Of a stretch of 64,000 bases of DNA, positions 8,801 through 58,706 are shown one piece after another. The stretch comes from Seison nebaliae. Taxonomy: Eukaryota. A model generated the notes under the pieces. It was given only the letters and a program-made list of their open reading frames with translations, had not been told where the DNA came from and did no database searches. The translations under genes and the position numbers were made by a program. The stretch is from positions 1 to 64,000 of the forward strand of contig JALJEE010002868.1 of NCBI GenBank assembly GCA_023231475.1, given 5' to 3'. Position 1 is the stretch's first letter. The number at the start of each line of letters is the position of its first letter.

Positions 8801-8922
8801 GGCAACAACTACAGATGATCTTGAGAGAAATGAATGATTTACAAATAAATTTATTGTCTCTCACGGTCAATTGTCGAATATGGTACTTCTTCCATAAACT
8901 TCACGAATTGGCTGGAATATAA
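3148..8922 (+). CDS. Large single-ORF hypothetical protein (1924 aa), probably all-helical
   Basis: Uninterrupted 5.8 kb ORF in AT-rich DNA. F/I/L/E/K-rich amphipathic composition with a poly-P/poly-T linker near 5795-5830. No family recognised. Confidence 0.8.
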
Positions 8923-13330: not shown

Positions 13331-14983
13331 ATGACTGATGAATGTATTGGCACGTTTCGAACAGGAGGCCTTATCAATGGAACGAAGAGTTCGATATCTT
13401 TATCAATAAACAAGATGGATGAAATGATGAATGAGGAAATCGATCGATTGCGAAGTGAGTTAGAAGAAGCGGGAGAGAAGATATTTGAACGTGATAAACA
13501 GATTGAGGCGTTGATCAAGGTACAGGAGAAATTGGAGAAAGAGTATACCGAATTATCGGCCGCCGTTTTCGAAGAGGCCAATAAACAAATGAACTCGATG
13601 AAATTGAAAGAGATGTCAGCACATGAGGAGAAGAAGAATGCCGAAATGAAAGTTTTGATTGTTTTGAATAATTTATTAAAATTTGATAGGAATTTTTCAG
13701 ATCGAATGTATGACTACCGAATTACACCGTCTCAATCGTATAATTAAGGAAGAGACAATAAAGAAATCTGATTCGATGCCAAAAGTTTCCATTGAGTTCT
13801 CCGTCTCATCTCATCTCATCTCATTCCAATTGTCAGTTCTTCGGATCGTCTCAAATCTCTCCACAGGTCAGTTCTCACTCATTCATCATCATATCTATTT
13901 ACATTTTTACCATCTCATGTTTATTTTATTCAGTCCAATTTATCATCAGGTGCTCTATCGAACTCATCCTTCATTTCTTTCGTTCGTCGACATCGAGACA
14001 AACCGAAAAGTCATCGGAGAAATCATTCTAGTTTCATATCCTCCTTCACCGGATCCACTTTCTCCATTAACGATCTGTCAGATAAACAAATTTCGAATGT
14101 GGAAAGTTCATTTTTTATTAATTCAATTTCTCGTCTCTTAAATAATTTTTAGTTGAAGAAGATTTCGTCATCGAGACTAATCTCAAATGCATTTCTGATA
14201 TTAATTACAAGAAAAATTTAGAATGTTACAATGCGAAATTTCAAGTTAATTTTTTTTAATTTTTCTTCTTGCTCTTGTCGACGTTGCTTGGGTGTTTGGG
14301 ACGACGACAAAACAGAAAGAGTTTAAGAAATTTATTATAAAAACAATTTCTCCTTTTCTCTCGGGTATTTCGTTGTCAGTTGAAGGAAAGTTGTTTATAT
14401 TTCAAATTGTTTCTCGATTGGAAACGTAACACTAATAAAAAGCAAATAATCGGAAAAGATTTCCAGTCAAATCCATTCCTTCTCACTTTATATGATCTAA
14501 TCAAATCAGTTATTCCCATAGATGGCGATATAGTTTATTTTTATTAATTTATCATCTAATTCATCTCATGACTTTTTTTTTTGTTAAGTTCACTTCATTA
14601 TTCCACTCCATCATCACTCATACCATCGATATTCAACCATTAAGGTTTCCTCTCCATCTTAATTCATCACCATGTCTCCAACATGACCATTTTTGTCCAC
14701 TCCAGGAAAAATAAGAACAATGATAATAATTTTACTCATTCAATGAAATTAGACGAAAGTTGTAAACTAATTGAAATTAGTGAAGAAACGAGAAATAAAG
14801 TTTAGTTTGAAATTATTTTGCTATTAATCTCTTCTGAAGATCATCGCAATTTGTAATCTGATCGATTATCTGAAATACATCGCGACGGAAGTGGTGAAGT
14901 GTAATGAGATTGAAATGTACGCTCGAATAATACAACATCTCTCAATCTGCTTATTAAGTAAATTTGACTTTTTTTTCTACTAA
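13331..14983 (+). CDS. RAB3IP: Rab3A-interacting protein / Rabin8 (Sec2-domain Rab GEF), multi-exon; 5' end uncertain
   Basis: Sec2 motif 'LEKEYTELSAAVFEEANKQM'. Downstream exons match the family: 'SHRRNHS', 'LFLDWK..NPFL', 'HTIDIQPL', 'RNK|IIAICNLIDYLKYI...LSKFDFFFY*'. Inferred introns: 13652-13700, 14031-14081, 14106-14152, 14533-14588, 14645-14705, 14800-14839. Others are unresolved. Confidence 0.85.
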
Positions 14984-16700: not shown

Positions 16701-18745
16701 ATGACATTGAAAAAAATTCCACATATTCGTCTCAATGATGACAATGAAGTGTTCGAATCGTTTGCTCGTATGAGCGAACTGGGTAAAGGTGCATTTGGTC
16801 AAGTCTTCCACGTAATAGAATGTACGACGAGAGAGAATTACGCTATGAAGATTATTAGGAAACATAAAGTTTGATTCGATTGACAGGAAATTTCCATTTG
16901 CTCGCCATCAATCTTTAGATCGGCAGTCGTGAAGCAATATCTCTGAGTAATGAAATTGAGATATTGAAGAAAGTGAATCATCCGAACCTCCTTCGAATTT
17001 TTCGAGTGATTGAAACTCGTAAAAATGTTTATTTGATAACGGAATTATGTAACGGTGGTGAATTGGGCAGTGTTCTGAAAAAAAAGACGAAACTACCAGA
17101 GAGAATCGTGAGAAAATTCGTTCAATTGATAGCGAATGCTCTCGCTTATCTCCATAAACATTGTTTGTCGTTTCATCTCTTCTTATTTCTATTACTCCTA
17201 ATTATTAGCTATTGTTCATCGTGATCTGAAATTGGAGAATATTTTGTTAACGATTCCATATTGTGAATCTAACGATTCGGATATAAATCTCAAAGTTTCT
17301 CTTCTCTTAACTCAATTGCGAGAAATAGTAAAAAGATTTCAGATTTCGGTTTAAGTGAAACAAGAGCGACGCTCAATCAATCCGGTTTACTCGACGGTTT
17401 CTGCGGTACCCCCAACTATATGGGTTTCCGACGTCTTTTTAAATTTTTCCAACGATTTCTCTTTGTTTAATAGCTCCCGAAATCATCGACAATAAACATT
17501 ATAGTCAACAATGTGATATTTGGGCTTTCGGAATTATCATTTTCAAATTGTTACCTTACTCATTTAAATTATGGTTCTTTTTGATGGTTCCCTTCCTCGA
17601 CAGATTGGTGGGGAAATATCCGTTTGAACATGACAATTCGTCTCAATTGATGAAATCGATTTGTACGAAAGACGTGAATTGGAAGCAACTTCACATCAGC
17701 GAGGAATGTTTAGATTTATTGAAAAGAACGTTACACAAAGATCCGGCACACAGGATTTGTTCATCCGAAATTCTCAATCATCCATTCTATCAAGTTCCTC
17801 CTCATTTCACTTATTTCATGTTAACGAGGTTGTGATAATTATTAGAACAAAAAATTTACAGAGTGTGACATTCGTCTAACGAAGAACATCATCGAATTGA
17901 TGAGAGAACATAACAACGAGAAGAAATCAGAGAACGTGGTGGAACGGAATAAAAAAATCATCAAATGCTCTTCGGCGAAAACGCGAAAATTCGCGACGAA
18001 TCTTCCATTAAACGTCATATTTCGTCGCGATCGAATGAAGAGTCCCTATCCGAGGAAAGACGTCGAACAACGTATCAAATCGACGAGGGAGAAATATGAG
18101 GCTAAATTCAATTTGAATAATTCGAGAGATTTGAAATTATCTCCCGACTATTTACCGTTAGTGAATGATCGATATAATTGGAGACGGACGAACACTGATC
18201 CGATACGCCGATTACGTTCCGAACAGAATGACGATAAAAAGAATGACTTAACATCCATTCTCAAATCGGACATGAAACGACAAGTCCAAACGTCGATGTC
18301 CACAAATCATCCGATGATGAAGGATGGGGATCATCGGTCACAAGACGTTGATCAATTGAACGAGAAATTGAAAGTGGAATTGAAAGTGAATGTGAGAAGT
18401 AATAATGCACAGAAATTGAGAATGGAAGCAGCGAAGAGACAAATGCAATTATTCTCTTCAGAAGTGAAAGTTTCCAATCGTTTCCTCCCCAAAACCAGAA
18501 AAAGTTCTTCTTCAGCCAAATGTAAAGTTAGAAATTTAAGGAGAAAAACAAATTTAATTAATTTCCAAAGATATCCATCGTTCCAAAACGTACGACTACT
18601 CTACTCGCCACATGTGATAAATGAGATATCCTACAACTGCCTCCCTATAAATAGACATTGTCCATATGAAATTTCTAACATGAACCTCCTCTTCCCTTTC
18701 CCACATTCTCCATCTGTAAAAGCAAATCGGAAGATCGAAATTTAA
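16701..18745 (+). CDS. STK33: Serine/threonine kinase 33 (CAMK group) with a long basic C-terminal tail
   Basis: Motifs: 'KIPHIRL', 'LGKGAFG', 'IVHRDLKLENIL..INLK|ISDFGL', 'CGTPNYM|APE', 'YSQQCDIW', 'NIIELMR'. Introns: 16869-16918, 17163-17208, 17295-17335, 17424-17473, 17550-17603, 17794-17845. The tail may contain further introns. Confidence 0.9.
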
Positions 18746-25363: not shown

Positions 25364-25402
<39 letters not shown>

Positions 25403-31084: not shown

Positions 31085-34000
31085 TTGAGATGGAGTGTGA
31101 GAAGAGAAAAAATTAAAAGGATAAGCCGCAGACAAAACAATTTTCGCGTACCTCACAATTTGAGAAAAATGCACGAAGATTCCGAACTGATTCTTCCCGA
31201 TTTGCCTCCAACCAACTCCGATTTCCAATTCGACGATGATGACAAGACGATAACGACGACGACGACGACGCGGAAATCGAATAATGGAATTCGTGCCATC
31301 CGTCAAGCTGATAAGGAGACGAAGGATAAACAGCGAGCAGAGCGTGAGCGTATCCGTCGTCTGGAACGTGAACCTGATTTAATGATGGAAACGGTTGACG
31401 GAGCGATTATGTTAGAGAAGGATATTTCTATTTCGAAATTGATTTCTGACAAATTGAAAAAACATCAAGTTGAAGGAGTGAAATTTATGTGGGAGAATTG
31501 TTTCGAATCAATCGACGGATTGAATAAGACGAGTGGAACAGGTTGTATTCTCGCTCATTGTATGGGAATGGGAAAGACTTTGCAAGTCATTTCATTAATT
31601 CACACTCTCGTCAAATATCAGGATCTTACTCACATTCATCATATTATTATTGCGGCACCATTGAACACATTATTGAATTGGAAAAAAGAAATCGAATATT
31701 GGACGAGAGATTGTTCACCTAAATTACTCGTTCATCATATGGTGGAAGCGAAGACGATGACTAAACGTAGTTCAATTCTCAATTATTTTTATGATGTTGG
31801 TGGAATTCTATTAATGGGTTATGAATTGATGAGGACGCTCATTGGTCATGTGGAAGATATTCAAGTGAGAAAGAAACCAGATCAATTATTAAAGAAACAA
31901 AAACGACCTCGAAAGAAAATCACAAATGCACAACGAGATCTCATTAAGAAGACACTATTAGATCCGGGAGCAGATCTCGTTATTTGTGACGAGGGTCACA
32001 TTCTCAAAAATGTCAATACATCCATTTCGAAAGCGATGAGTCTTATTAAAACTCTGAGACGGATCGTATTGACAGGAACGCCACTTCAGAATAATTTAGT
32101 GGAATATTATTGTATGGTCAATTTTATCAAGCCGAATATTTTAGGAAGTGTTGGATTATTTCGTAATCAATTTGTTAATCCGATTAGAAATGGAGAATTG
32201 AAAGATTCGTCAATTCAAGAAGTGAATTTGATGAAACGTCGAAGTTTCGTTCTTCATCAATTATTGGAAGGATTCGTTCAACGGAAAGATTATCGTGAAC
32301 TTGCTAAAATGTTACCGAGTAAACATGAATATGTAATTCTTTGTCGATTAACACGACGCCAATATGATTTGTATAGTCGATATTTGCGTATTGTGAAAGG
32401 AGTATCCAAATCGAAAGAAGTTCTCATTACTCGATTATTTAGTGATTATCAACAATTACTTCGTGTTTGGAGTCATCCATGGGCATTACCACTTCATCAA
32501 ATTCGAATATTTATTAATCAAAATGTCCCAAAGAAACAACAACGATTAGAGGAAGAATTTCGTGATTTCATCGATGACGATGATGTTGAAAATGATTTTA
32601 CTTCATCTAGCGAATCTGAAATTGATGGAAGTCGTCGAACCAAATACAGACGAATAAATTCCACATCATCTTCCGTTTCATCGACAATGTCATCATCGAA
32701 GAGAAATGTGAAAAAAGCGAAACAAAGAATCAGTTCAGATGATAGCGATATCAGAGAATTATCAGGTGAACCAGATAATGGAAATGATTCAGATTATATT
32801 GTCGATTCAGAAGACGAAATGGAATTCGATACGACTCATCTCTCTCTCATTATCAAACGAATGTTGAATGGACAATCGAATTTCACCGAACGCGAATTGG
32901 AGAAATTGAGAAAAACGGGCAAATTGAATTGGTATGCGGATTTATGTCCCACTTCTATCCAATATGATGAGACACAAGCTGGAAAGATTATGATGTTAAA
33001 ATCGATTTTATTCAAATGTGAAGAAAGAAATGAGAAAATTCTTATTTTCTCTCAATTTCTCACATCACTCGAAATGATTACTAATTTCCTCAAACATTGG
33101 GAAGAAGAAGATCGTTATCGTCCTGATGGTTCCAAATTTCTTTATCGTTATGAAAAAGATTACTTACGAATTGATGGTAGTACTACTGCACATGTTCGAC
33201 AGGAATATATTAGTGATTTCAATGATGATACAAATCGTCGTTTACGCATCTTTCTCTTATCGACGAGAGCGGGCGGTATCGGTGTCAATATGGTTGGTGC
33301 AAATCGTGTGATACTTTTCGATGCATCCTGGAATCCCTCACATGACGTTCAATCTATTTTTAGAACTTATCGATTCGGTCAAAAGAAATCCGTTTACATC
33401 TATCGATTAATTGCTGAAGGAACGATGGAAGAGAAGATTTATAATAAACAAATTACAAAAATTTCATTGGCTGATCGAGTAGTGGATGAGAAACAAGTCG
33501 AACGAAATTTCAGTCAAACTGAAATTACGAAATTATATGAATTCACTTCGAAAATCGTCGAAACGGAAAAAGAAGATGACATCGATGAATCATTAATGTT
33601 AGATGAAACATTGAAAGAGAAGAAACGATTAATAAGTTCATCGTCAGAATCTGATTCTTCAATCATTAATTTGGAAGATGATTATCCTCAAAAGAAAGTT
33701 GAGACAAAGGAGAAAGATATCGAAGATATCGATTATAATAATTTGATGAATGTGATTCGTTTGACGGATAAAGTTCCCAAATTGGCTCCAGCTAAAGAAG
33801 ATGAATTATTATCCGAAATTCTCGCTAATCCAATTCTCACTCGATATATTAAGAAATATTTCGAACATGATTCTCTTTTAGTTCATAATGCTCATGAGGA
33901 ATTAACGGAAGCAGAACGAGTACAAGCATGGGCAGATTATCGATCGAATAAGAATGATGCAACTGTAAAGACGACAATTCCTTCTACTACCGGATCAGTT

Positions 34001-34901
34001 CCCATTGCCCCCAAACCAAATCAACCGACAACATCTTATTTGGGAATGTCGAACAATTTAAATAATCTTTTCTCCGGTACAATTAATAAGTTGGTCACAA
34101 TAACATATTCCTTTTAGTCGATTTTCTTCTTTTAGTAATTATCTTCCAATTCCTGAAATCGATAGTAGGAATTTATTAGAAGCACTGAAAATGAGCGATA
34201 TAAAAATCCATGGTGTTGGCCCGAACAACGGTTAGTTCAACTCTTTAATTTTTTTTTCAATTTTTTTTTAAAATTTCTTTATTTCAATTTTATTTTCAAT
34301 TTTTTTATTTCAATTTTTTTTCAATTTTTTTATTTCAATTTTTTTTTTTAAATTTATTTTTTCAATTTTAGATGCTAAAATAATCGAACGAGCCAAATAC
34401 CTCAAGGATTATTATGTCAAATTATGTACAGATTATCCTGTGGTACGAACGCTCAATCAAAAAAGTATTTTCATGACAATTGTCGAGGTTTTCACATTTT
34501 TTTTCTCTCCATCTCTCATTTCCTTTTAGAACATCCGTTTATCATTGACTGATATCGCTAATATTATTTTGAGTCGACATATCGTGTCATCGTTGGCACC
34601 CGCTCTCAATCCATCATCAGATCGCACAAAAAATTTAATAGCGTCAACATTAAATTTGATGGAGGGAAAATCATCTCAATCATCTCAAAACACCACTACC
34701 ATAAACAATAACAACAACAACAACAATCATATGAACAAGAAGAATGATGAGGTGATCGTGTTATCAGATGATGACGATGAGGATGATATTTCGAAAATTA
34801 ATCCGAATAGAACTTTCAATTTTATAGCGAACGTCGACGATGATGACGATGATGTTCTTCCAATCACCAATTATAATGATGAGGAAATCATTTTGGATTA
34901 A
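31085..34901 (+). CDS. ATRX: ATRX/XNP SNF2-family chromatin remodeller; first in-frame ATG at 31169, 5' end uncertain
   Basis: Motifs: 'LKKHQVEGVKFMWENCFES..GTGCILAHCMGMGKTLQV', 'DPGADLVICDEGHILKN', 'LTGTPLQNNL', 'FDASWNPSHDVQSIFR', 'HDSLL..EELTEAERVQAW'. 3' introns: 34090-34135, 34231-34371, 34488-34529. Confidence 0.93.
34245..34370. repeat. Degenerate tandem repeat (TTCAATTTTTT..) inside an ATRX intron
   Basis: About 7 units of TCAAT followed by T-runs. They expand the intron to 141 nt. Confidence 0.8.
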
Positions 34902-35155: not shown

Positions 35156-38100
35156 ATGTATCGGATCTTTTATCTTCAATTCCTCATCTATTTCTTCACT
35201 TGTTATTTCTTCATTCGATTATTTTAAATAAATCCTTTAAAATCTTCTCTTCTTCCTTATGAAAAGATATCGATACATTTAATCACAATTCAAAATGTTT
35301 TCATTTAAATTCCATCATCTTCATCTTATCTCTTAATTCCAAAAAGACATTAAAGGATTCCAACGAGGTACTTCCTCATTCTTTCGTCAACGATATGGTC
35401 GACCGGATATCGTTTTCCGAAATAGTTCAATTTCATTACTCTCCTTCAATCTCTTCTTTCATTATTCATAAATTCAGTTTTTGGCAATCGTCAACCATAC
35501 AAGAAAATCATTCCAAGTATCATCTTCTTTCTTTTCCGCATTTTTATTTGAATTTAGAAGAAATGAAATTCATTGCTCGTCCTAAATCTAACGCCGATTT
35601 TGATGAGGAGAAAATTGGTGTCCGATTACAAGAGCAATTGGAGAAGAGGAAATTGTTATTTCAGAAGAAATTGAATGAATTAAATCGATTGAAGAAGCAA
35701 TTGCAAAAACGAGAACTTCGTTCAAACATTTCATTTCTCTTTTAATTTTCTATCGTTTCAGAAACCGGTTACAATGATCAGATCGAACGATATCGACGAG
35801 AATTCAAAACTAAATCTGATGGTTTCCTCTCACATTCCATTCTCTATTTCAATTCTCATCAGAATTAACACAACTCAAACATTTCTCCAATATGAAACGT
35901 GACGCAATGAAGAAATTAAGTTAATATCTTTCCAGAAAAACTTCATTTAATTTCTATTTTCTCAAAGAACAATCGATTAATAAAGAGAAAGAAACGGGAA
36001 AGAATTTAGGTGATAAATATACTTAAAACGAAATTTAACATTCTCTCTTCAACAGATAATCAGATTGTGACGCTGCAGAAAGATCTTGAAACGAAAAAAA
36101 AGAATTTGGATAAAGTCGATTATAGTTCGTCTATTTTTATTCAGTCTACTCTTCCATAGAGAATCCCATTATAGAATTCTACAACAAAAGTCGATTGATT
36201 TGTAATTTGAGTGATACGAGAACCAACTTAAGTTTTCCTTCAAATTTATCTCGAGAATGAAATTCGAAAAAATAACATTCAGTTAACGAAGTGGAGAATT
36301 TGAAGAAGAAGATGGAGTACGCACAGAACCAGTTGGCGGATCTCCACATCGAATTAATAAAGAAAACGAACGAAACAGGAAATCTGACAAAAATTCAAAA
36401 AGTTTTAGTAGAGAATCGTTTGGCAACTGACTACAAATATATAACAACACAAATTTTGTTGTTCGATCAAACTTTGCAATCATTGGAATTGAATTCGCCA
36501 AAAAGTTCATTTTCCTTAAAGTTCCAAGTCAATTCAACTCGTTATTTTCTCTAGAGATGATTGTTAATCCACTATTTCGAGAGTTTCTCGAAAATCTCTC
36601 ATTGTTGAAAGAAAGTAATTTTACGAAACAATTGAAACGAAAACGAGCCACCAATTCTCCTTTCGGCTTAGCCATTCCAAATAGTCCTGTGGTGAAATTC
36701 GAGACAGGTCTCTCGTCCGTTCAACGTTGTTTAACGAGTAAACGTATCCAAATGAATTCATTGAGATACGACATGATTAATCTGATAAATCGTTCTTCAA
36801 ACTCATCAATTCTTTTTGACTGAATAAAATTAATTTGTAGAAATTCAAGAAGAGAAATCAGTCACAGAGAAACGTGTCATCGATTGTAACGAGGCTCGTT
36901 AGAGATTTTTATTATAAACTGTCCAACCATTTTCTCCCAAATAGATAAAGAGTTGAATGTAACGAAGAATTTTATTCAAACTAAATCGAATTATCTTTCA
37001 AAATTGACAACGGGTTGAAAAATAATTTTTGCACAATTTCTTTTCACATTATTTTCACATTATTTTCACAATCCGCCCACAATACTTTTAGAAGTGAACT
37101 CATTGTTAGTACGGAAGACGAGTGTACAGAATGAGACAGATGTTTGCAGTTCGTCTTTTTTTATTGGCAAATCGAAAATTCTCTTATCCTTAGCACAAAA
37201 ATATCAAACTTTAATAAAGATGGTGAAAGATTCGTATAAGGATTTAAGTAAGAAGAAAGGTCAGTTGGAAATGTGGAAATGGAAACTGGCAGGAATCACA
37301 ACCAATTATGTCAATTTAAGTTGGGTAATTGAAGGAATACTTTTCTTGTGAATATTTGAGATAGATGCGGCCGATTTGAATAATAAGAGAATGATCGAAT
37401 TGAAGAAATCGGAATACGATTCAACTTTAGCAAGTTAGATAAGAAGAGAAGAAGAAAAAATGAATTTGGCTTGAATAGAATTAAAGGAAGCATTGGAATT
37501 TGTGAACGAGACATTCAATGACGGTTTCTCCAATGGAGAGAAGCAAATATTAACTCTTCAAAATAAAATAAAAAAATTGACGACGAGTTCGGAAATTTGA
37601 TATGTTTTAACAATTTTAATTTTCTCCATTTCCAAATGAAAGAAGTGGCAAGTGTGACGGATCCGGAATTGAATAAAATAAGTTTTGAATTTTTGTTACA
37701 TTGTCGAAAGTGAAACTGATTTGAACGAATAGTCGACGAATTCGAGAGTAGCAATGTCGATTATTTTTACCATCCTTCCGATATCAACCTATTGGATGGT
37801 TTCTCTCAATATTTTCTCTTTAATTCTCATCTCTTCTCTCTATCTCTATCTCTGTAGACACTACGTACAGTTTCTTCAACGATAAAAAGTCGGCAATCGA
37901 TACGGAAATTGTTGCCATGGCAACTACAATAGGAACTCTATCATCGCCTAAAGTACGGGAGGATTTCGAAAATCCCAAACCCACTGCTACTGATGAGATC
38001 GAACTCGTCAAATGTGGTTACCAAACTAAAACTACTTTGATCGGAACGGCAAGTAAGTTTGAATTAGGCTGGTTGGATACCACCTGTCCACTATCCGGTA

Positions 38101-38394
38101 AATTTTCGAGAGTTACTCGATCATTTATCGTCGATCCGGATGCGGATCCGCCTGTTACTCCACCAGTCATCACAGTGTTAATATTGAACTCTCTAATATT
38201 GAAGATTTGCTTTTGATTCTCTCATAGTCGCGACAATAACAAATGGGAATTAACTGTAGAGGAATTGACACTTTTAAGTTCGAACGAAGTTGAGACGATG
38301 GCAGATATCTTCACTTATAAATGTTAATTTTTTCTCGATTTCTGGACAAATATTTCCTCAATTTTTTTCAGGTGATTATGGGACATGTTCATAA
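35156..38394 (+). CDS. Orphan secreted coiled-coil protein (708 aa), 23 exons
   Basis: Manual splicing of 22 introns gives one open 2127 nt CDS. Introns: 35202-35266, 35297-35346, 35425-35477, 35517-35557, 35720-35761, 35822-35862, 35920-35967, 36010-36055, 36125-36174, 36232-36282, 36505-36554, 36792-36840, 36898-36944, 37014-37091, 37149-37193, 37320-37364, 37434-37478, 37587-37642, 37682-37732, 37799-37857, 38177-38227, 38323-38371. It starts 'MYRIFYLQFLIYFFTYIDT' and ends 'YKCDYGTCS*'. Confidence 0.7.
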
Positions 38395-38762
38395 GAAGAA
38401 AAAAAACTGTTGGAGGAGAATGGAATTAAATTGATAATTTGAAAAATAAATGATAATTTCATGATAATTCTCTCACCATCTTCATTTCCATCATTCACAC
38501 ATTAATTGGTCGAACTTATTTTTTGATGAATAAATATGTTTGATGACTTGCCACTCATTCACATTCGAATAAATTAATAATTATTTATTATTGTTTGGAG
38601 GTAATTCAATATGTTCCCAGTGATTGGGGACGACCTTGTCGAGTGAGAAGAACTCACCAATCGATCGTCAACAGATGTCACAATAAGTGGAGATGTGATA
38701 AATTCTTCTTCTACATTGCCTTCCTTCCTTCTTTCATTTCATTCGTTTACTTCATACAATTG

Positions 38763-39960
38763 ATGAGAAGAAATATGTCTGAGAAAGAGAATTTCTTGCG
38801 CAAATTCAAGAGTGTGAGTGGCGACGGTCTACGACAATTGACAGCCACTGAATTCTTAGAAGTTTGGGAGCATTTCGACAAAGACAGTTCATGCTTATTC
38901 ATACATTCTTCCCTCCACCCTATCCCTCGCATTCTCCATCACTTCCACAGATAACGGTTATATTGAGAATGATGAACTCGATGAATTCTTGATACAATTA
39001 GCAACATCGAAACAATCATCTTTCAATCCGAATGTTTCCTCATCGTTTTTTCATGAAAAAGAAAAAATAAATAATTTTATTTCTTCTCAGGCAATTCCCC
39101 GAGTAGCCATGGAAGACATGAAAGAATGTTTCCTTGCCGCTTATGATGAGAATGATGACGGAAAAATTGAGATTAGTGAAGTTGATCATGATTCTCTTTT
39201 TTCTCTTTCTCTTTTAACTTTTTCTCTCATCGAGGACAGTTGGCCGAATTACTACCAACTGAAGAGAATTTTCTACTTTTATTCCGTAAATCGAATCCTC
39301 TCGAATCGAGCGGTGAATTCATGAAGGTTATCCCAAATTTCTTTGAATGTTTTGAGGCAATTTAAAAGGAAAATAAAGATTTGGCGAATGTTCGACGACG
39401 ACTGCAGCGGAAGTATTGACAAATCGGAATTGAACGGATTCATACGTTCGCTCATCAGTCAGACGAAGAAGAAAAGTTCGACGATAAAGAAAACCACTTC
39501 TTTAGATATCGACGAAGAGAAGATCGAAGAATATGCTGTCAGTATTCTCCGAATATTCGATACGAACAATGACGGTAAATTGGAATTATGTGAAATGACG
39601 AAGTTACTCCCTGTCAAAAACAACTTCCTCCACAACATAGACGACATCGGCTATTCAGGTTTGATCGACGATGACGATATCGATGAAATCTTCGACAAAT
39701 ACGACGATGACCGTAATGGATTCATTGAGGAGTATGAGTTAGATGGTTTCGTACGCGACATGTTCCATTATACACGATCCAAATCGAACGAAGAGAATGG
39801 AGATGTGAACGAGGACGAATGTCAAGAACAGTTAGAAGAATTCAAACATTGTTTGCTTACAGGTAGTGATGTGGATAATGATGGAAAGTTGAGTAAAGCG
39901 GAAATTAAGATGATATTACATGCAATGCAACAATCATTAAATTCGAGAAACGAGAGTTAG
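38763..39960 (+). CDS. Calbindin-32/Cbp53E-like hexa-EF-hand calcium-binding protein
   Basis: Motifs: 'NFLRKF..LRQLTATEFLEVWEHFDKD|NNGYIENDELDEFL', 'ECFLAAYDENDDGKIEISE|LAELLPTEENFLLLFRKSNPLESSGEFMK|IWRMFD'. Introns: 38887-38950, 39034-39090, 39181-39239, 39327-39378. Confidence 0.92.
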
Positions 39961-41992: not shown

Positions 41993-43255
41993 ATGACTAA
42001 TCATACCACTACTACAAAGAAAATTTCATCTCCCCAAATCTCTTCGATTCTCACCGAAATTCATCAGAACAATTCGCCCAACAATCGACCCAAATCAAAA
42101 TCACTACGAAGAAGTCACAAAGAATCAGCCTCTTATAAACAGTACAGGAAAGTGGAGAGTCTCAAAGAGAATCCGAAGAAATTAACGAAAGACCATCAGG
42201 AACATCTTCATTCGAGTCAAAACAAGTCACCATTATTCTCGGCGAGTGAAACGAGTATATTGACATCCGAATCATCTCAATCATCTCAATCATCTTTTCA
42301 CTCATCTTCACATAATAAAATGATTACAACAACTAACGATCAATCGGATGACTTGATCGTCGATACAGTGAATGAGGGGAAGAAAGTGGAAGAATATCGA
42401 TATGCCGATCCATTAGAATTACACATTGACGAATCGAATTACTTCTCAGACGATTTCAATCCTGCACATATTATTAACTTGAAAACGAAACATATCAATT
42501 TCCATCGTCGTGTTCATGATCTGACGATAGAAGTTGAAGAGACAATTAGGAGAGAGAAATTATCGAAAAAGATGAAGAATGAAATGGAAACTGATTTTTC
42601 ATTCTCCAATCGACGTCCAACTCTTTGTTCGAATTGTAAATATTTTCTTCAAACTTATCGTGTCCGTTCGCCATCTGCTCAAAAGAAGAATTCGTTGGAA
42701 CAGCGAAATTGTTTCATTTGTGAAGCGCGTCGTCGTAAAGTGTTACCATATATCAATCCACCAATTCAGATCAATCGACTAACCAAATCAGATTTCTCGA
42801 AGAATGTTGATAAGAAATTAAATCGACCCATTTCTAGCATGACGACGCGACCACTCACTTCGCCCAACGTCCAAAGGAATTTGACATCCATTCAAATCAG
42901 TCGAACATCTCCACAACGTCATCAACATCGATCGACAATTCAAGAGAAATCGAAACAAATCATTCTACCTTATCGCTCCCTCAACGACAATAAGAACGCA
43001 TCAAATAAGACGGAAGTGAAGATAAAGAATAATCAAATCAATCTCAAGAAATATCCGGAAAGTATCCTCAAGAAAGAGAACAGTTCAATTTCGATGAAGA
43101 GTGAACACAAATCAGTGAACTTCTCGTTGAAACTTCCAAGATCACATCGTCATGAAATGAAATTAATTCCTGCACATAAACGTCGATTATATGAAAGACA
43201 AATTTTCCATATTCCCATCGTCAGTACCACAACGATGACACCACTCTATTTATGA
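41993..43255 (+). CDS. Hypothetical basic Ser/Lys-rich protein (at least 420 aa); probable upstream exons within about 40500-41990
   Basis: 1263 nt ORF with a CxxC..CxxC pair ('CSNC', 'CFIC'). Upstream ORF pieces at 40522 and 41076 are flanked by GTT..AG candidates but were not resolved. Confidence 0.6.
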   Translation: MTNHTTTTKKISSPQISSILTEIHQNNSPNNRPKSKSLRRSHKESASYKQYRKVESLKENPKKLTKDHQEHLHSSQNKSPLFSASETSILTSESSQSSQSSFHSSSHNKMITTTNDQSDDLIVDTVNEGKKVEEYRYADPLELHIDESNYFSDDFNPAHIINLKTKHINFHRRVHDLTIEVEETIRREKLSKKMKNEMETDFSFSNRRPTLCSNCKYFLQTYRVRSPSAQKKNSLEQRNCFICEARRRKVLPYINPPIQINRLTKSDFSKNVDKKLNRPISSMTTRPLTSPNVQRNLTSIQISRTSPQRHQHRSTIQEKSKQIILPYRSLNDNKNASNKTEVKIKNNQINLKKYPESILKKENSSISMKSEHKSVNFSLKLPRSHRHEMKLIPAHKRRLYERQIFHIPIVSTTTMTPLYL

Positions 43256-43302
43256 TGACGTGTCAAATCAAATCTCTTTTTGTTTTATAAAACTATTTTA
43301 AA

Positions 43303-44513
43303 TTAAAAATATTTCTTACGAAAAATGTGTTTGTCCTCTTCACTCATGAACGACGCTGCTAACGCGTCTTCATTTGTCTTCTTTAAAACTTCTTCTGATA
43401 ATTTCATTCCGTTCCTTGATATATCGAAATTGTCGTTGATGTAATCGAGGAAGATTGCCGGATCATCCGAATTGATAGAGAAGGGCACATCATCATGTGC
43501 AAATCTCACACAAGGATGTTTCGTCCAATCGTCGTGAGGCATAATGGCTGATTGTAGATACCAGGAAGACCAGGGACAAGTTTCAAAATGAACTTTACTC
43601 GTTCTAGCTAAATCGTAAATTTTTCCATCGTCCAACACATGATAGCCATGACCGATACGTTCCGCGAACATATCTTCTATAGCTTGTTTGACGTGGAAGG
43701 CTGGTCCTGATTCACCTGCATGAACAGTACGATGAATTCCTAAATCCCGAGCTTTCTTGAATGCATCGATATGTCGTTGATCGATTGGATCGGTCACTGG
43801 TTCACCACCAGCTAAATCCATTCCAACGATCATATTTCTTCCCTGGAATTTTTCAATTAATTCAACAATTTCCATCGACTTCTCTGGTTCATGTTCCATA
43901 CAACATAGAATTAGTTTCACATCGATATCGGAACTTTTCCCTTTTTCAACACCTCGAATAGCTGCCTCGACTACTTGTTCGCCAGTGAAATTATTAGTGG
44001 TGAGAGTAAATGGAGCGAATCGTCCTTCCACATATCTCAGTCCTTTATTCTTCATATCTTTCGTGAATTCTTCGAATATCAATTCAATAGCAACTTCATC
44101 ACCGGAAAATAATGGTGTAATGACTTCGAACACTTTCAAGAAATCGAATAAGTGACCACGTTTTCTGTATATCGTTTCGTTGAAAGGTGGAGGTTCGACA
44201 CCCTTCAATTTCGCCAACTTCTTCACCGTATCGTAACTTATGGCACCGTCAACATGAACGTGCAATTCGATTAATGGCTTCGTCATTTTCGTACCTTTCA
44301 ATTTCAAGACGGTGAATAATGTGGCGATACTGGCGGCTAGTGTCTAGAAAGAAGAAGGAATTATAGATGAGTGAAATATTGATTTAAATCGATGAAATCG
44401 AAATGGTAGGTAATCATTATAGCAATAGATCTAATTGAAGTGAGATGTAGAAAAGAAATGCTTACGACGAAAATGATAAGGGAAATCAATGTTATGCGAC
44501 GAGTTCGCTCCAT
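43303..44513 (-). CDS. ADA: Adenosine deaminase (ADA1 type) with an N-terminal hydrophobic segment
   Basis: Motifs: 'ELHVHVDG', 'YVEGRFAP', 'HRTVHAGE', 'AERIGHGY', 'HFETCPWSS', 'SINSDDP'. Exon 1 (44513-44466) joins in frame across a GTAAG..TAG intron at 44465-44344. Confidence 0.92.
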
Positions 44514-45106
44514 TATTTCTTTAAACTGAATTTAATGTACACTCTCTAAAGGAAAAGACGAGTCTGAAAGATGAATTGTAATTCTTCCTCTTTTAAACCA
44601 AACAAACAATGATAATTGAAAGAGATTGTAAACATTCTTTATTTATATTCTCCTCTCTATATACATACATTAATACATATGGACAATATAGACTGATACA
44701 TCAGATACGTTAGAAATTGCAAGATCGTCGTTGTTGTACGTAGATGAGTACACATCGATTGGACACGATTATTGGAGAGAAAATGTGTTTACTATTTTTT
44801 TCTTTTCGTATCAATTTTATTTGTTCAGAAAATTTTTGTTTTATTTCTCAATTTTTGATAGAGTCAATAAAATTCAACTAATACAAAGATATAAATCAGT
44901 TTTTATGAGACAATCGTTTAACGGAAATCCTTTTTTCGTGGTTGCAAAGATGAAAAGACCAGTTCTTCTAGTCATTCTAACAAAACGATTGAAATGAAGG
45001 ATGGAAGTCTTCGTTCAGGAAGTGAGGGAAGAGATTGGAATTGAGGAAAGGAATGAGAATGTGTTCCGTTCGAAAAGCAAGCTATTAATTAAATTAGGAA
45101 AGGACA

Positions 45107-45856
45107 ATGTCGGGACGGAAGTTGAGGATATTGTGTATTCATGGATATCGACAGAATTCGCGAACTTTCTACCAGAAATTGGGCTCGCTAAGAAAATCGT
45201 CAAAATCTTTGGCTGAATATAGTTTTAATCGGATCATCTCTTCCACTAATCTCTTCCTCTACTAGTCATTCCAACGGCTCCATTGAAAGTTCCGGACAAA
45301 TTGAGTGATGAGGATGACGCGGAATTCGGGTGGTGGTTCTCTCACAAAACTGATGATGGAAGTCATCGATATAATTGTTTAATAGAGACGGAAGCAGCAT
45401 TAGATTATGATATTTCTTTACGATTCATGCAACAGTTCGTATCGGAGAATGGTCCGTTCGATGGAATAGTGGCTTTCAGTCAAGGTGCTTCATTTGCATC
45501 ACTCATCATGAACAATAGTTTGTGTTTGTTCCACAATTAATTCATTCTTCTTGTTAGTTAAGGGACTTAAGTTTGTTATTCTCTTTTCTGGTTTCATAAC
45601 TGGACAGAAGTCTCATCGACCTTCATCGATGGAGAAAACGGAAAACATTGAAACGATCCACGTATACGGGTTGAATGATCAAGTCGTTCCAGTACAGTTG
45701 TCACGTCGTCTAGCTGAATGTTATGAAAGGAAGACGATCGTTGAACACGAGGGCGGACACTTTATTCATTTCCGTGACGAAACTAAATCAACAGTGTTAA
45801 CTCTGTTAAGGAGATATCATTCGATTGTTAATGATGGAATGGGAAAATCTTCTTAA
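45107..45856 (+). CDS. OVCA2: OVCA2/FSH1-family serine hydrolase (esterase)
   Basis: Motifs: '[12 protein letters not shown]', '[13 protein letters not shown]', '[10 protein letters not shown]', 'HEGGHFI'. Introns: 45222-45265, 45518-45557. Confidence 0.9.
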
Positions 45857-45980
45857 TTATTATCCTTCATGAGTCCAATGCGTGATTTGATTAATTAAAA
45901 TAAAACTCTCATAAATTTCATCCAACTCAAACTACAAATGTACATAATATTCATTGTTTATTTAACTTCATGAAACAAGA

Positions 45981-48126
45981 ATGAATATCTCACTTAAACT
46001 ATTACGACATCTGTCGTCGTTCATTCCCACTGTCGTTCTCGTATTAATCCCGATCGTTGCATTACCCATCCTCTTACAAGGTGATGAGGAAGTTCGTTCC
46101 CCTCTTCTTCTTTCCTTATTATTCTCTCTAACCATCTTATGATGACAGTGGAGGAAAGCAATATATATTATGATCGTGGTGGGCAGTTATTGGGTGACGG
46201 AGACACTTCCTCTCACAATCTCTGCATTTCTGCCCGCTATCCTAGTGCCAGCTTTCGGTATCATGACAGGGAAAGAAGTAGCCATCGCTTATATGAACGA
46301 TGTTCTACTTCTTCTATTTGGAGGTATGGCATTCGGTTCCGCTATCGAACGATCAAATCTCCATCAACGAATCGCATTGAAACTTCTCCTAATATTTGGC
46401 GCGTCGTCAATCTCGTTAGTTACCGGTCTAATGATTTCTTCAGCCTTCCTCTCCATGTGGATCAATAATACAGCGACAACTGTCATGTTATTGCCAATTG
46501 GTCGAGAGATCATTTCAAAATTGGAAGAGGTTCGGCTTGCCCACGAGAAAGGTGAAATTAACGAGACATTCGAAATGGAGTTCATCATTTCCTTCTCTAA
46601 CAAATCATTCCATTCAAAATTAGATCTACGATCAATTTGGAGATTGATGAGAAAATCAAAAAATCAGAAGAAATTAAAACGAACGTTCAAACATTGTCAG
46701 AAGAGAATGAAAAACTGATTAAAGGAATGTCGTTGGGAATTGCATATGCGAGTTCGGTGGGTGGATCGATGACACTCATTGGAACTGGTCCCAATACGAT
46801 TCTGAAAGGAATGTTGGACAGGTTCAAAATTTCCTTCATCGAATAATAATGGAAAAATATGTTTTAGAACTTATCCAAAAAACGATTTGAGCTTCTTCAA
46901 ATTTATGATGTTCGCCGTACCAAATGGAATTCTCATTTTTCTCGGTACTTACATTGTCATCATTTGTATGTTCTGTCGATCAGAGTTTCATCTTTTTCCT
47001 CTTTCTCATTATTATACAACTTCCAATTTCATAGTTTAATCATCCTCTTTAAACGAGTGACGAGAAGATCAGAAACGGAAGAAAGTATGAAAGATAAATC
47101 GAATAATATTCGAACAGTTCTCCGACAGAAATATAAAGATTTGGGTAAATTCAAGTTGTAATTGAACATTGAACATTGACTTATTATTCATTTGTAGATG
47201 GGCAGAAATTTGGGTTCTCATTTTCTTCATTTTAGTCATTCTACTCTGGTTATCACGAGATCCTCAATTCTGTCCTGGATGGGGAACATTTTTCACATAT
47301 AACGGTAAATCGTTAACATCTCTCCATTCTCATCAATTCATAAGATAGATTATTAATTCATTTATTATTAGTTATGCAACCGATTCATTACCTATCATTT
47401 TCGTATTGGTCATGATGTTCATCATTCCGAAAGAGAATATTTTCAATAAGCAATATTGGAAAAGTTCGATTTCTCTTCGAAAATTCTTCTCTTCCATCGA
47501 TCATTTTCAGAGAATAATCGAGGAAGTATTTTAACATGGAAATTTGTTGAAAGTAAAGTTCCTTGGGGAATGCTCATATTGATTGGAGGTGGATTCGTAA
47601 TATCAGAAGCTTCGAAAAAAACCGGTCTTACTAAAGTTTTGGCTGACGAATTGAAAGGTTTAGTGAAGTTGGGAGAGAAATCAGCACTCTTCTTATTAAT
47701 CATGACGATTGGTCTACTCACTGAATTGATGTCGAATTCAGCTGTGGCTACACTATCGGCTGATATAATGATGGAAATTGTTGATAATATTTCCTCTTAA
47801 TATTTCTATTTAATCATTCGTTTCAGGCTATCAACGCATCATTGCATCCACTCTATTTTGCTCTACCTTGTATCATTTCTAATTCGATGGCATTTATGTT
47901 TCCGGTAGCTACGCCACCTAACGCAATCGCCTACTCTATGGGAAATATTCGAATGATCGAAATGGTTTTCTTTTCTTCCATTTTTAATTGATTCTCTTAT
48001 GCTTCTCTCTAGATCCGGACTGGTATCCTATTAAATATCTTGGCATATATTTTCATATTCATCTCCGCTATCTCGTTGGGGGAAGCGGTATTCCATCTGT
48101 CTCGATTACCCAAATGGATGAATTGA
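45981..48126 (+). CDS. SLC13/Indy-family Na+-dicarboxylate/sulfate cotransporter, 10 exons
   Basis: Motifs: 'AIERSNLHQRIAL', 'LSMWINNTAT', 'YASSVGGSMTLIGTGPN', 'LWLSRDPQFCPGWG', 'TELMSN', 'AFMFPVATPPNAI'. Introns: 46092-46148, 46580-46623, 46822-46867, 46985-47034, 47155-47197, 47312-47371, 47464-47510, 47780-47826, 47965-48012. Confidence 0.93.
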
Positions 48127-53383: not shown

Positions 53384-53879
53384 GACGAATTGGAAATCTC
53401 AACTAGAAAACGAGAAATTATAAATCTCAAAAGACCGATCTGATATTGAGATTAGACGAGGATGAAATTGGGATTACAATCTACTTCAAATCTCTCTGCC
53501 AACTCAACATGACAATTGGACAATGGTAAAACGAACATTCATATCGAATAAACATCATTCCTTCCCACAGTAAAACATTGCAACGAAATGAATGAGTGTA
53601 GTACACAAGCGTAACATATTAAGCTGAATATTTTGAAATAAACTTTTTTAAAGTCCTCTTCGAAACTAACGGATCGACAAATCTCAATCGTTTGACAGTT
53701 CAACATTTCGGCTCATTACCCAAAAAACGTCAAGAAACCAATGTCGAAAAAAAAAGATGAATAAGAAAGCAGATATAAATTTGAAATATAAGCTTACGAA
53801 CTTTTATTTAAACATAAGAATTTTTAGAAACATCTTACTTTTTATATCATATTAATAATATGTAAATTTTTAAAAGACT

Positions 53880-54992: not shown

Positions 54993-57900
54993 TATATTAT
55001 GTCAATGATTATTCGTCTAGTTCTTCTGCTAAAGCTGAAAGCAAGATATAGTCTAAAAACAATTTTTTGGTATTTTACGCCTATAAATTAATTTTTAGCA
55101 TATTTTTTTTTATACACTAATATAATATTTTTTACTCTTTAAGACGTTCCTCCTGGGTAAATTTCAAAAGAAACAAGGTAACTCATTAGTATAGTCGGGT
55201 AACTCATTAGTTATAAGAAGTGTTCAGAGCACAGAATGGATCTTTGGAAATTATAGTGAGAAAAAGAATGAATTATATATTAAATAGAAATAGAATGAAT
55301 TAGATTGTTCTGACGTTCGGAAGGAGGATAATTCAAGGTAAACACGAATAATTAATGTTAACCATTCAATATGTTACGTATTATTATTATTAATAACATC
55401 ATAAAAATATTAATTATCATCATTTGCTAATATAAAATTTTGAAAAGAAATTTTCCTCATTCACAATTATTTGTAATGATTAAGAAGGATTAATCACCAT
55501 TCACATTAAAGGGACGATGGTGATTTACGAATAATTCCAAATGATAAAAAGTGGAATAATTATCTTGAAAATTTTCAAATTGTTTTAAATAAAGTTTAGT
55601 TAGGAAAAAGAATTTAAAAGAATTCCTCATGTTAATTCACAAACGAAAGAGATGGAAGTTGTTTCCATTCAATTGATGATATTGGAAAGAAGTTCATTCC
55701 TCTTCTTTGACATTCTTTGGCAGAACATTCACCTTTCTAGATAGTTCATTACGAACTTTATATTTTAGTCGGCTCTCATATAAGAATGAATATAATAGTA
55801 ATAGAATAGAATAATAGAATCAGTGAATAAGTTTACATAAGACTTTTCTATCCTTTTCTCATGAATGAACTTCAAATTTGAACAAGTAAATTACAAATAT
55901 CATTAACAAATTACAGTAGTTTCGTCAATTGAACTTCGGTTCAACTTGAAGGGTTTCCATTGGTCACCAACAGTAGGAAATTTTCTCTATTTCAGAATGT
56001 ACAGTTGTTGACCGACCTCGAATGGTAGTCAATTGTTTACAAATAGTTTTTAGTAGTTTTTTTATTACTATAAGTCGAATCTGTGAAAGGAGTTGACCTT
56101 TAGTTTGCAGTCAACCCATATACGAAGAAAAGGAACGTAGTTAACTTTTTTTTTAAAGAACGCAGCTCATTTGTAAGCAAAAGGAATCAATTTAACCTTG
56201 ATTTCGAAAAAAAGAATTCAATCAACCCTTATTTTCCCAATTGGAAAGTATTCAACCCATTTTGTCTAAAATTAGAATGAAGTCAACACACCATTTTCAT
56301 GTAACTAAACGAAATTTTATTTTTTTAGAAATTAAATAATAATTCGTCTTATTATTTGTTCAAGGTTCAAGAATGCAATGAAAGAATTTTCAATTTTAAA
56401 TCTGCATATTTCTTTTAGTCACATGACATGTCAATTGTCGTTAATCTGTTCATATTACACTCTTCCCAAGTCTACCCGGTTGTTTAATGCAAGATCGAGT
56501 ACTTGGTTCCTGACAATCTGAAAAATCATATACAAAAATACCGTAACCTAATTTCCAACGACCATAATCATGACTCTTTATTTTTCATTTATCAATTAAC
56601 TACTCTATAGGGATTTACAGTTATAATAAAAAAATAAAATATAATAGTTCTTCTTATTAATTATGCATTCATTTTTCCATATATTGAAATATATGCTTTC
56701 CACGTTCACTCAATATTTTTTCATACTATTCGATACTATTCATTCATGGTATACTATTCCAAAGTTTATTTCAATTTAATAATTTTATAGTTATTTCCCA
56801 AATTGTTAAATTGTCGGAAAAATTTGTCGGATTTATGTTCCAACTTTGGGTGGAAGCACAAAAGTTTCTTGGGGAATTCATTTTTTTTTTCGAAATTTCT
56901 TTCTCTATCTAATACATATATTGTGATAGCTCGAATTAGTTGGAAGTGATTTCCATGGTGAATAGAAAGAAAACGAGAGCGAATAGTCTGGAAATTGGAG
57001 TAGGTCGTTAAACTTCAAAATCTCCTTTTTTGTCTCCATAGTAATGATTTGTTGAAATTGGGAAAAAATAGTGGGACCAATTCATAAAAATTGGGAAGTG
57101 GGAAAGGGGTTTTTCTCCGATAAAAACCGTATAAGAAAAGTGGAAGAACTTAATGAATAATGTGGATAGAATTAATGGGAAATATAATTTGAAAAATTTT
57201 TAATTAAAACAATATCATTTCCATCAAAACTTTACCGCTTTCTGACATTTTTTTTCGTCAGATAATGGAACGAAAAAAACCATTAAATAAACTCATCTTA
57301 AGAAAGACATTTAATTAGAAATATTACTTGAAAATATTCTGTCTCCTTCTCAATCATTATTTTGATCTTAACATTTTTGATTTGGAGTGAAATATTTTGA
57401 ATATGTTGAATTTGACGTTGGTATGTGAAGTTTTGTTGTAGGTGGATTATTAGTATCAATGGATCAACAGATTAATTTATTTTTTGGTTTTTCTTAAAAT
57501 GTTTACTAGCTTGCTTATCTGCCTACATATTTCACTCTGTTCGAAAATGAAAGGTGAGTGAATTGAAGAGAAAATTGAGACATAATCACAAACGAAGTTT
57601 GAGTTGACCTTCTTCTATATTCAAAATGAGAATTAATGTCGAGAACATTCTACATAATGACACTGGTGCCTTAACTTTTAGTGAGAGAGAATTGGAGAAT
57701 GAAGTTGTTGCACATTTGGTCTGAGGAGGGGAATGAAGAGACTTAACGAAATATTCAAATTGGATACCTTACTTTAATCTTACTTTAACTATGAGAAAGC
57801 GATCGGATTTTCCCCCATTATAATTTGGAAAGAAGAAGAAAAAAAACGGATCGTAAATGTATTATTTTGTACCTAGATAGATTGGTAAGTGGGAGTGGTG

Positions 57901-58682
57901 GACAGTGCATTTCCAGTTACTATTCTCCTTGAAACTGTTGAAGGAAGACGAAGCGCTAAGTCGTCGAGAGGTGAAATGCTCAGAATTCAAATGCTATTTC
58001 TGTCTATTCATCTCCCAGTCGTCGATCAATCAACTGATTGATGGGAAATTGGAGTGCCGAATAAATTATCTCCATTCTCAACATTTATTATTCGGGTAGA
58101 ATTGAATAACATTTCGAACTATTTTCTTTCCTTCTTCCACCCTTGAACACTCGCTTTATTTGGTCAATAAGATTATTGCATTAAATGTGATAATAGATGA
58201 TGTGTATGGCAGATGATGGACATTTCCAGTTCATTTATCAGTTCATTCTACTCATTTATTCCTTCTCTTCCTCTTCCGTCACACTCCCTTCTTCAACAAA
58301 TAAGAAATGATTTGAAGAAATAGTCTGACTACAAACAACGAACAAATCTCTTGTTTTCTCTTATTTTTCTTTCATTCAACTACCACCCGCTAAATTGACG
58401 TCATATTATTTATTGATGTTATTCTATCGATTTTTCTCCTCAACGTTTATCCGAAATATGTTCATTTTTTCTAATTTTTTTTCCTTCGAAATATTTTTCA
58501 AACATTTCTTTCCTTTTCTTTTCTTGATAATATGAAAGAAATATTTCTCTCTTTAAATTCTATTTGGAAAAAAGGATTATTGTATGTAGTGCAAGTGGAA
58601 AAATATTCTTTAAATTTTTCTCTTTTTCAAAAATAATTTTTTAATTTGAAGATTTTATGAAATTGTCTCCTCTCGATAATTG

Positions 58683-58706
58683 GGAGAGAGAGAGAGAGAG
58701 AGAGAG
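58683..58706. repeat. (GA)n microsatellite directly upstream of the receptor ORF
   Basis: Directly visible. Confidence 0.85.

What the first reader, a model, noticed from the sequence alone, without database searches (positions are those of the whole stretch)
44344..44465. Possible two intron classes: the longer introns keep U1-like donors
Seen: the only GTAAG donor found is in the 122 nt ADA intron. The 141 nt ATRX intron (34231) starts GTTAGT, a GTT donor that has the canonical +4..+6 AGT. Nearly all other introns are 40-65 nt with degenerate donors. Inference: short introns may be defined by length plus GTT, while long ones need real U1 pairing, implying two recognition modes or two U1 variants. 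The sample is very small, and the 78 nt intron at 37014 (GTTGAA) lacks the AGT.
Basis: partly seen in the sequence, partly recalled or inferred. Interest (0 to 1): 0.7.

Follow-up and report, generated by a model that had tools for sequence, protein, structure and literature searches.

The report
GTT-start introns, stronger when long
In this stretch of a rotifer-relative (Seison) genome 50 of 53 predicted introns begin with the unusual letters GTT, and the few long ones carry better textbook splice signals; this is likely one splicing machine retuned to read GTT, with long introns at the strong end of a gradient, rather than two separate intron classes.

Summary
The window is Seison nebaliae DNA: its proteins match public SNEBB models. 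I curated 53 introns in 10 genes; no RNA run was listed. The named introns check out: ADA 122 nt GTAAGC (the only GTA donor), ATRX 141 nt GTTAGT, 78 nt GTTGAA. 48 of 53 are 40-65 nt and 50 of 53 start GTT. Long introns do match the canonical donor better: +4A+5G in 3 of 5 over 65 nt against 2 of 48 (p=0.004). That is post hoc, and p=0.12 on held-out introns alone. A candidate 1.1-kb intron with AAG|GTGAGT would add support. Two classes are not shown. Three of four introns over 70 nt keep GTT, and short introns keep +5G (12 of 49, background 7.5%) plus A-rich exon ends. Best reading: one U2-type spliceosome shifted to favour +3U, perhaps through a changed U1 as in Entamoeba, plus the known rise of donor strength with length. 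No U1 gene is in the window. The near-fixed GTT donor in an intron-rich animal is the notable part; I found no report of it for Seison. The scan noted a different GTT class in another genome.

The parts
44344..44465 (-). ADA intron, 122 nt, donor GTC|GTAAGC (alternative in-frame donor GTCGTA at 44468); the only GTA donor of 53
   Evidence: no RNA
43303..44513 (-). adenosine deaminase gene (PF00962); exon 1 plus the start of exon 2 form a predicted N-terminal signal anchor
34231..34371 (+). ATRX-like intron, 141 nt, donor ACG|GTTAGT; body is a low-complexity T-rich repeat, so it is likely an expanded short intron
37014..37091 (+). 78-nt intron, donor GTTGAA, no canonical match at +3..+6; contains a short tandem duplication
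14245..14379 (+).
13867..13933 (+). 67-nt intron, donor CAG|GTCAGT, best canonical match in the set; an in-frame GTT alternative exists 4 nt downstream with a shifted acceptor
36010..36055 (+). 46-nt intron with TAG|GTGATA; the only non-GTT donor among the 48 introns up to 65 nt
57499..57553 (+). candidate signal-peptide exon for the TGF-beta/BMP type I receptor, ending in phase 1 at AAG|GTGAGT; not in the public model
   Evidence: inferred
57554..58706 (+). candidate long intron, about 1.1 kb (acceptor 58706, or 58651 with a 13-nt exon and a 46-nt intron); not counted among the 53
   Evidence: inferred
13331..14983 (+). RAB3IP/Rabin8-like gene, 8 introns
16701..18745 (+). protein kinase gene (STK33-like, name recalled), 6 short GTT introns; exons tile the Pkinase profile
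31169..34901 (+). ATRX-like helicase gene, 3 introns (46, 141, 42 nt)
35563..38394 (+). unnamed gene, 17 introns; six exon edges match edges of diverged-haplotype pieces
38775..39960 (+). EF-hand protein gene (calbindin/calretinin-like, name recalled), 4 short GTT introns
45107..48126 (+). FSH1-like hydrolase gene (2 introns) and SLC13 transporter gene (9 introns), all GTT, 40-60 nt

Best explanation
Seison introns likely use one ordinary major (U2-type) spliceosome whose donor recognition has likely shifted to favour U at position +3, and the longer introns are likely the strong end of a single gradient of donor strength, not a second class. Shown in the sequence: near-fixed GTT, A-rich exon ends, residual +5G, a tight 40-67 nt size peak, and more +4A/+5G/+6T in the few long introns. 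Inferred: short introns are recognised across the intron, so GTT, exon-end A's (U5 loop 1) and occasional +5G are enough, while longer introns need more U1/U6 pairing at +4..+6. Inferred and untested: the +3U reader is most likely a single U1 with A in place of U opposite +3 (box ACUAAC instead of ACUUAC), which would make GTTAGT the ideal donor. A U6 G-U wobble or a protein reader are the alternatives.
For: GTT in 50 of 53, and in 27 of 28 introns that have no alternative in-frame donor within 30 nt (p=5e-7 against 53%), so it is not my selection. A donor-neutral gene finder recovered all 9 SLC13 introns as GTT, though the SLC13 coding sequence was in its training set. Diverged-haplotype pieces end just inside GTT donors at 37016, 37436 and 39184. 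Three of 4 introns over 70 nt keep GTT. Short introns keep +5G (12 of 49, p=2e-4) and -1..-3 A (p=0.001, 0.006, 0.0004). Non-GTT donors look compensated: AG at the exon end in 2 of 3 against 4 of 50 GTT donors (p=0.03), as expected if +3U adds strength. Precedents: length-strength correlation in nematode, fly and fungi (PMC1713244); U5-type and U6-type donors under one U1 (PMC11732430); a single compensated U1 for GUUUGU donors in Entamoeba (10.1101/2022.06.08.495308).
Against: On the two held-out curated introns +4A+5G is 1 of 2 (p=0.12). Spearman over all 53 is not significant. Non-T at +3 is commoner in long introns (2 of 5 against 1 of 48, p=0.02), which a U1 tuned to +3U does not predict directly and which fits a second mode. 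The ADA donor has no exon-side compensation. In other lineages with odd donors (Thecamonas, Micromonas, 69 yeasts) U1 kept the standard box, so a changed U1 is not a safe inference. The introns are predicted from DNA; the public models contain at least one false GTT intron.
Confidence: 0.5

Rival explanations
1. Two recognition modes served by two U1 snRNA paralogs: a canonical U1 for long GTRAG introns and a variant U1 for short GTT introns.
For: Non-GTT donors cluster in longer introns (2 of 5 over 65 nt against 1 of 48). The candidate 1.1-kb intron has a perfect canonical AAG|GTGAGT, one of only 2 such motifs in the window, on a signal-peptide-like exon found without using the donor sequence (chance about 0.002-0.01).
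Against: GTT is shared by 3 of 4 introns over 70 nt, and short introns keep +5G. In Fritillaria, with far more divergent introns, the two U1 versions have identical 5' ends (PMC13326754). All five Entamoeba species gave one U1 candidate each.
Confidence: 0.15
2. U1 is canonical; +3U is a short-intron signal read by another component (U6 ACAGA box G-U wobble, U1C/Luc7, or a TIA-1-like protein), and long introns fall back on ancestral U1 pairing. One spliceosome, two weightings.
For: It explains why +3 purines survive in long introns. The U6 ACAGA box can pair with GUUUGU. Several lineages with odd donors kept the standard U1. C. elegans mett-10 mutants shift from GURAG to AG//GU donors, with AA//GUUGU as one example (PMC11347140).
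Against: 96% T at +3 (0.9 bit over background) is tighter than a wobble usually gives (my judgement). +4 shows no T preference (20 of 49, background 46%).
Confidence: 0.2
3. The length effect is small-sample chance plus model error; only the GTT bias is real.
For: Post hoc cut-offs; held-out p=0.12; the 78-nt intron has no match; a predicted 83-nt intron (GTTTCT) and a public 175-nt intron (GTTAAG), both dropped, are weak, and adding them gives p=0.06-0.09 at the 70-nt cut. Two long introns look like repeat-expanded short ones. The ADA donor and intron are not RNA-proven.
Against: With the two adverse candidates added, permutation p is still 0.010 at the 65-nt cut and 0.007 at the 100-nt cut; with all three extra candidates 0.002, 0.010 and 0.0007. 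The direction matches the known trend.
Confidence: 0.15

Closest known systems
Length-dependent splice-site strength (C. elegans, Drosophila, fungi, vertebrates; Dewey, Rogozin and Koonin 2006, PMC1713244, citing Fields 1990)
   Same: Longer introns carry stronger donors under one spliceosome.
   Different: Here the weak short-intron donor has a near-fixed +3T rather than merely less information, and the switch seems to lie near 65-100 nt.
Entamoeba GUUUGU donors with a compensated U1 (Roy and Bowser, bioRxiv 10.1101/2022.06.08.495308)
   Same: +3U replaces the purine in nearly all donors.
   Different: Entamoeba is intron-poor with a rigid 6-7 nt donor (88-90% GUUUGU). Seison is an intron-rich animal (up to 17 introns per gene here) with free +4 and +6 and weak +5G. 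Its U1 is unknown.
U5-type (AG//GUNNN) and U6-type (NN//GURAG) donor classes (Parker, Fica and Simpson 2025, PMC11732430)
   Same: Donors lean either on exon-end pairing or on +3..+5 pairing; short Seison donors lean on exon ends, long ones on +4/+5.
   Different: Seison exon ends are AAA-like, with G at -1 at background (10 of 49). The classes there are about 1:1 and not defined by length in the passages I saw.
Fritillaria borealis non-canonical introns (PMC13326754)
   Same: An animal spliceosome that handles divergent donors beside a minority of canonical ones.
   Different: Seison introns in this set all keep GT-AG (only GT/GC-AG was searched). Fritillaria uses U2AF paralogs and snRNA m6A changes, not U1 5'-end variants.

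Membership tests
U2-type (major) spliceosomal introns | GT...AG ends whose removal restores an open frame | tested here: met
   53 of 53 GT-AG; all 10 gene models open to one stop. Only GT/GC-AG ends were searched.
U2-type (major) spliceosomal introns | GTRAG-type donor consensus | tested here: not met
   +3 purine in 2 of 53
U2-type (major) spliceosomal introns | Branch-point motif and pyrimidine tract near the 3' end | tested here: inconclusive
   YTRAY in 25 of 53 against 18.1 +/- 3.4 in shuffles; mean 13 of 20 pyrimidines, some acceptors purine-rich
U12-type (minor) introns | RTATCCTT donor (motif recalled) | tested here: not met
   none of the 53 donors listed, including ADA GTAAGC
Length-dependent donor strength | Donor match rises with intron length | tested here: inconclusive
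   permutation p 0.002-0.03 by cut-off, Spearman p=0.17, held-out p=0.12
Two length-defined intron classes | Non-overlapping donor logos for long and short introns | tested here: not met
   3 of 4 introns over 70 nt are GTT; GTTAAT occurs at 48, 49, 51 and 135 nt; GTTAG at 45, 47 and 141 nt
Two length-defined intron classes | Two U1 genes with different 5' boxes | not testable with these tools
   no genome held; no snRNA hit in the window
Entamoeba-type donor/U1 coevolution | +3U donors in nearly all introns | tested here: met
   50 of 53; 27 of 28 unambiguous
Entamoeba-type donor/U1 coevolution | Rigid GUUUGU and intron poverty | tested here: not met
   GTTTGT in 2 of 53; genes with up to 17 introns
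Entamoeba-type donor/U1 coevolution | Compensatory U1 box | not testable with these tools
   no U1 sequence reachable
U5-type versus U6-type donor classes | Exon-side and intron-side pairing anti-correlated | not tested
   n=53 with 5 donors carrying +4A+5G is too few; only marginal counts were made

The most novel reading that the evidence does not exclude
Seison runs two U1 snRNAs with different 5' boxes, one reading the GTT donors of thousands of 40-65 nt introns and one reading ancestral GTRAG donors kept in long introns: an animal with a U1 duplicate specialised by intron length.
Probability: 0.13. Interest if true: 0.85.

Novelty: new variant of a known kind. Interest (0 to 1): 0.48.

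Why it matters
The length effect alone is a known pattern. What a splicing specialist would notice is an intron-rich animal whose donor has lost the +3 purine in 94% of the introns examined. Compensated U1 boxes are described for Entamoeba and Mastigamoeba, while many lineages with odd donors kept the standard U1. Seison would be an animal test of whether U1, U6 or a protein follows a genome-wide donor shift. It has a public assembly, published mRNA-seq and two diverged lineages (PMC8351084), so the test is cheap. It also explains why automated models here invent GTT introns.

Tried and rejected
No whole genome was held, so the genome-wide logo and U1 search could not be run. No RNA holder listed; the runs laid on 35400-44700 were contigs, X1 and X5 behaving as DNA with no splice joints, X6 and X7 with nothing laid. 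Rfam scan of the window: 2 weak chance-level hits, no snRNA. Metagenome scan for relatives: 20 ATRX-like loci, none close to the query, not used. Dropped before counting: the public 45-nt ADA intron 44094-44050 (deletes a helix present in all 10 aligned homologues); the public 175-nt intron 45805-45979 (GTTAAG; it fuses two unrelated Pfam genes, and the first has its own stop at 45856); the predicted 83-nt intron 11154-11072 (GTTTCT, gene start unresolved); unresolved candidates at 15325, 18527, 37149, 38017, 40708, 41323, 41514, 41571, 51047, 53457-53797 and 57554. The 83-nt, 175-nt and 57554 cases were added back as a sensitivity test. A two-short-intron reading of the 135-nt intron fails: the only micro-exons (5 nt or 1 nt) break the frame (my reading). 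A 35-nt reading of the ADA intron runs into a stop (hand reading). Literature searches for a report of Seison or rotifer donors: Seison nebaliae + intron (5 papers); Seison + splice site (2); bdelloid + donor splice + introns (3); Adineta + splice site + U1 snRNA + spliceosom (0); rotifer + splice site + U1 snRNA + short introns (97 with 3 of 4 terms, 20 listed). None of the listings or passages I saw describes the donors. Subscription papers and supplements were not seen; supplements of PMC8351084 could bear on this. Fields 1990 was not held.

Full report
Identity. The ADA exon's best hit is Seison nebaliae SNEBB_003158, and neighbouring genes hit SNEBB_003159, 003150 and 003154 on a 118-kb contig. 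The window is therefore S. nebaliae (Seisonidea, Rotifera-Acanthocephala clade). No whole genome was held. No RNA holder was listed. All introns below are predicted from DNA.

Intron set. I built 10 gene models with 53 introns; every model is open to a single stop. Support: 23 introns match public models. Ten rest on homology: the kinase exons tile the Pkinase profile (2-35, 44-117, 119-132, 139-164, 166-188, 191-262), which fixes 5 junctions, and the other 5 rest on frame plus recalled similarity. Eight have one edge matching the edge of a diverged haplotype piece in runs X1 or X5, three of them on the donor side. Eleven rest on frame alone and 1 is uncertain. The public models are automated: one contains a false 45-nt GTT intron that deletes a conserved helix, so they are weak support. 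Dropped rows are listed under Tried and rejected.

Observation. Median length is 49 nt; 48 of 53 are 40-65 nt. Position +3 is T in 50 of 53, with one each of A, C and G. To test whether I selected for GTT, I listed introns with no alternative in-frame donor within 30 nt: 27 of 28 are GTT, against 53% GTT among GT pairs inside introns (p=5e-7). GTT is 38% of GT pairs in the window. The GTT bias is the firmest result.

Short donors are not empty. In the 49 introns up to 70 nt, +4A (12) and +6T (22) are at background, but +5G is 12 of 49 against 7.5% (p=2e-4). Exon ends are A-rich at -1, -2 and -3 (28, 26, 29 of 49 against 35%), while G at -1 is at background (10 of 49 against 20%). The working donor is roughly AAA|GTTNG. 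This contradicts 'length plus GTT only'.

Length effect. Introns over 65 nt: GTCAGT (67), GTTGAA (78), GTAAGC (122), GTTAAT (135), GTTAGT (141). +4A+5G is 3 of 5 against 2 of 48 (p=0.004). Canonical matches at +3..+6 give permutation p=0.003, 0.03 and 0.002 at cuts of 65, 70 and 100 nt. The ADA donor has an in-frame GTC alternative, and ADA homologues start near the Met downstream of the intron; the intron is favoured by the hydrophobic anchor it creates (19-residue hydropathy 2.44).

An extra test. The ORF at 58712 is a TGF-beta/BMP type I receptor. It starts at its first extracellular cysteine and lacks a signal peptide; that such receptors need one is established knowledge, recalled. I ranked upstream ATG-opened exons by hydrophobicity without scoring donors. 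The second-ranked ORF (57499) ends in phase 1 at AAG|GTGAGT, one of only 2 AG|GTRAGT motifs on both strands of the window (1.33 expected). Ten of 213 upstream GT sites close an exon that hydrophobic, so the chance of such a donor among them is about 0.002, or 0.009 for the looser G|GTRAGT. This would be a 1.1-kb intron with a fully canonical donor. The public model has no such exon, the acceptor is ambiguous, and other hydrophobic candidates exist, so I did not count it. With it, +4A+5G is 4 of 6 against 2 of 48.

Two classes? Not on this evidence. Three of 4 introns over 70 nt keep GTT. The same hexamers occur at both sizes (GTTAAT at 48-51 and 135 nt; GTTAG at 45-47 and 141 nt). The 141-nt and 78-nt introns contain repeats, so they are likely expanded short introns. 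First introns are not generally canonical: the first modelled intron is GTT in 9 of 10 genes. Non-GTT donors tend to carry AG at the exon end (2 of 3 against 4 of 50), which suggests +3U adds strength and its absence must be paid for.

Mechanism. Shown: the sequence pattern. Inferred: one U2-type spliceosome; short introns defined across the intron with GTT, exon-end A's and some +5G; longer introns needing more +4..+6 pairing. Untested: which component reads +3U. I favour a single U1 with A opposite +3 by analogy with Entamoeba, where the box is ACAAAC instead of ACUUAC. Several other lineages did not change U1, and the excess of non-T +3 in long introns fits a canonical U1 with a separate short-intron reader. 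I give 0.5 to the best explanation, 0.2 to a canonical U1 with another reader, 0.15 to two U1s and 0.15 to chance.

Comparison and what I read. PMC1713244: abstract and passages; it states that splice-site information rises with intron length in nematode, Drosophila and fungi. Fields 1990 was seen only as its reference. Entamoeba preprint: abstract, sections 12 and 14 and part 2 of Results. PMC11732430, PMC11347140 and PMC13326754: passages. PMC8351084: passages; it reports compact genes, mRNA-seq and two lineages, and the passages with 'intron' or 'splice' say nothing about donors. PMC10125929: passages, not relevant. Five searches found no description of Seison or rotifer donors; subscription papers and supplements were outside reach. 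Whether other rotifers share the GTT bias is untested.

Verdict. The genome-wide GTT donor implied by this window is a new variant of a known kind and makes a sharp, cheap test of donor and snRNA coevolution in an animal. Interest 0.48.

Noticed in passing
window 44094-44050 (-): The public ADA model SNEBB_003158 removes a false 45-nt in-frame GTT intron, deleting 15 residues present in all 10 aligned homologues.
   Followed up: yes
window 45107-48126 (+): Public model SNEBB_003159 fuses an FSH1-like hydrolase and an SLC13 transporter through a 175-nt intron; they read as two genes.
   Followed up: partly
window 44513-44287 (-): If the 122-nt intron is spliced, this ADA1-type enzyme gains an N-terminal signal anchor; only 2 of 119 homologues had a comparably hydrophobic N-terminus. 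A secreted or membrane ADA in an epizoic animal may act on host adenosine (speculation).
   Followed up: partly
window 17335, 37642, 39378 (+): Acceptors ending in purine-rich AAAG with no pyrimidine tract; A at -3 in 7 of 53 introns. 3' recognition may also be relaxed.
   Followed up: partly
window 15325 (+): The other AAG|GTGAGT motif lies just after the RAB3IP-like gene's poly(A) signal and 1.4 kb upstream of the kinase gene; it could be a 5' UTR intron (about 66 nt or 1.37 kb) or chance.
   Followed up: partly
window 40500-40846 (+): A small unmodelled ORF with a likely 50-nt GTT intron at 40708-40757; a diverged haplotype piece starts at 40758.
   Followed up: no
window 44593-44653: Non-coding stretch between the divergent ADA and FSH1-like genes that is conserved in the diverged haplotype of run X5; possible shared promoter element.
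   Followed up: no
window 36553-36781: Runs X1 and X5 hold a second haplotype about 84% identical, with changes spaced mostly at codon intervals; useful for tracing donor substitutions.
   Followed up: partly
window 3148-8919 (+), 48875-50014 (-), 58712-60427 (+): Long intronless coding stretches (1924, 380 and 571 aa, present as such in NCBI) sit beside genes with up to 17 introns; intron density is very uneven.
   Followed up: no
window 21428-25910 (-): 1478-aa low-complexity protein with an AXH (ataxin-1/HBP1) module and one 49-nt GTT intron.
   Followed up: no
window 766-2566, 9350-9646, 54161-55001: Broken ORFs that look like remnants of a LINE-type retroelement (by eye; resemblance recalled, not tested).
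   Followed up: no
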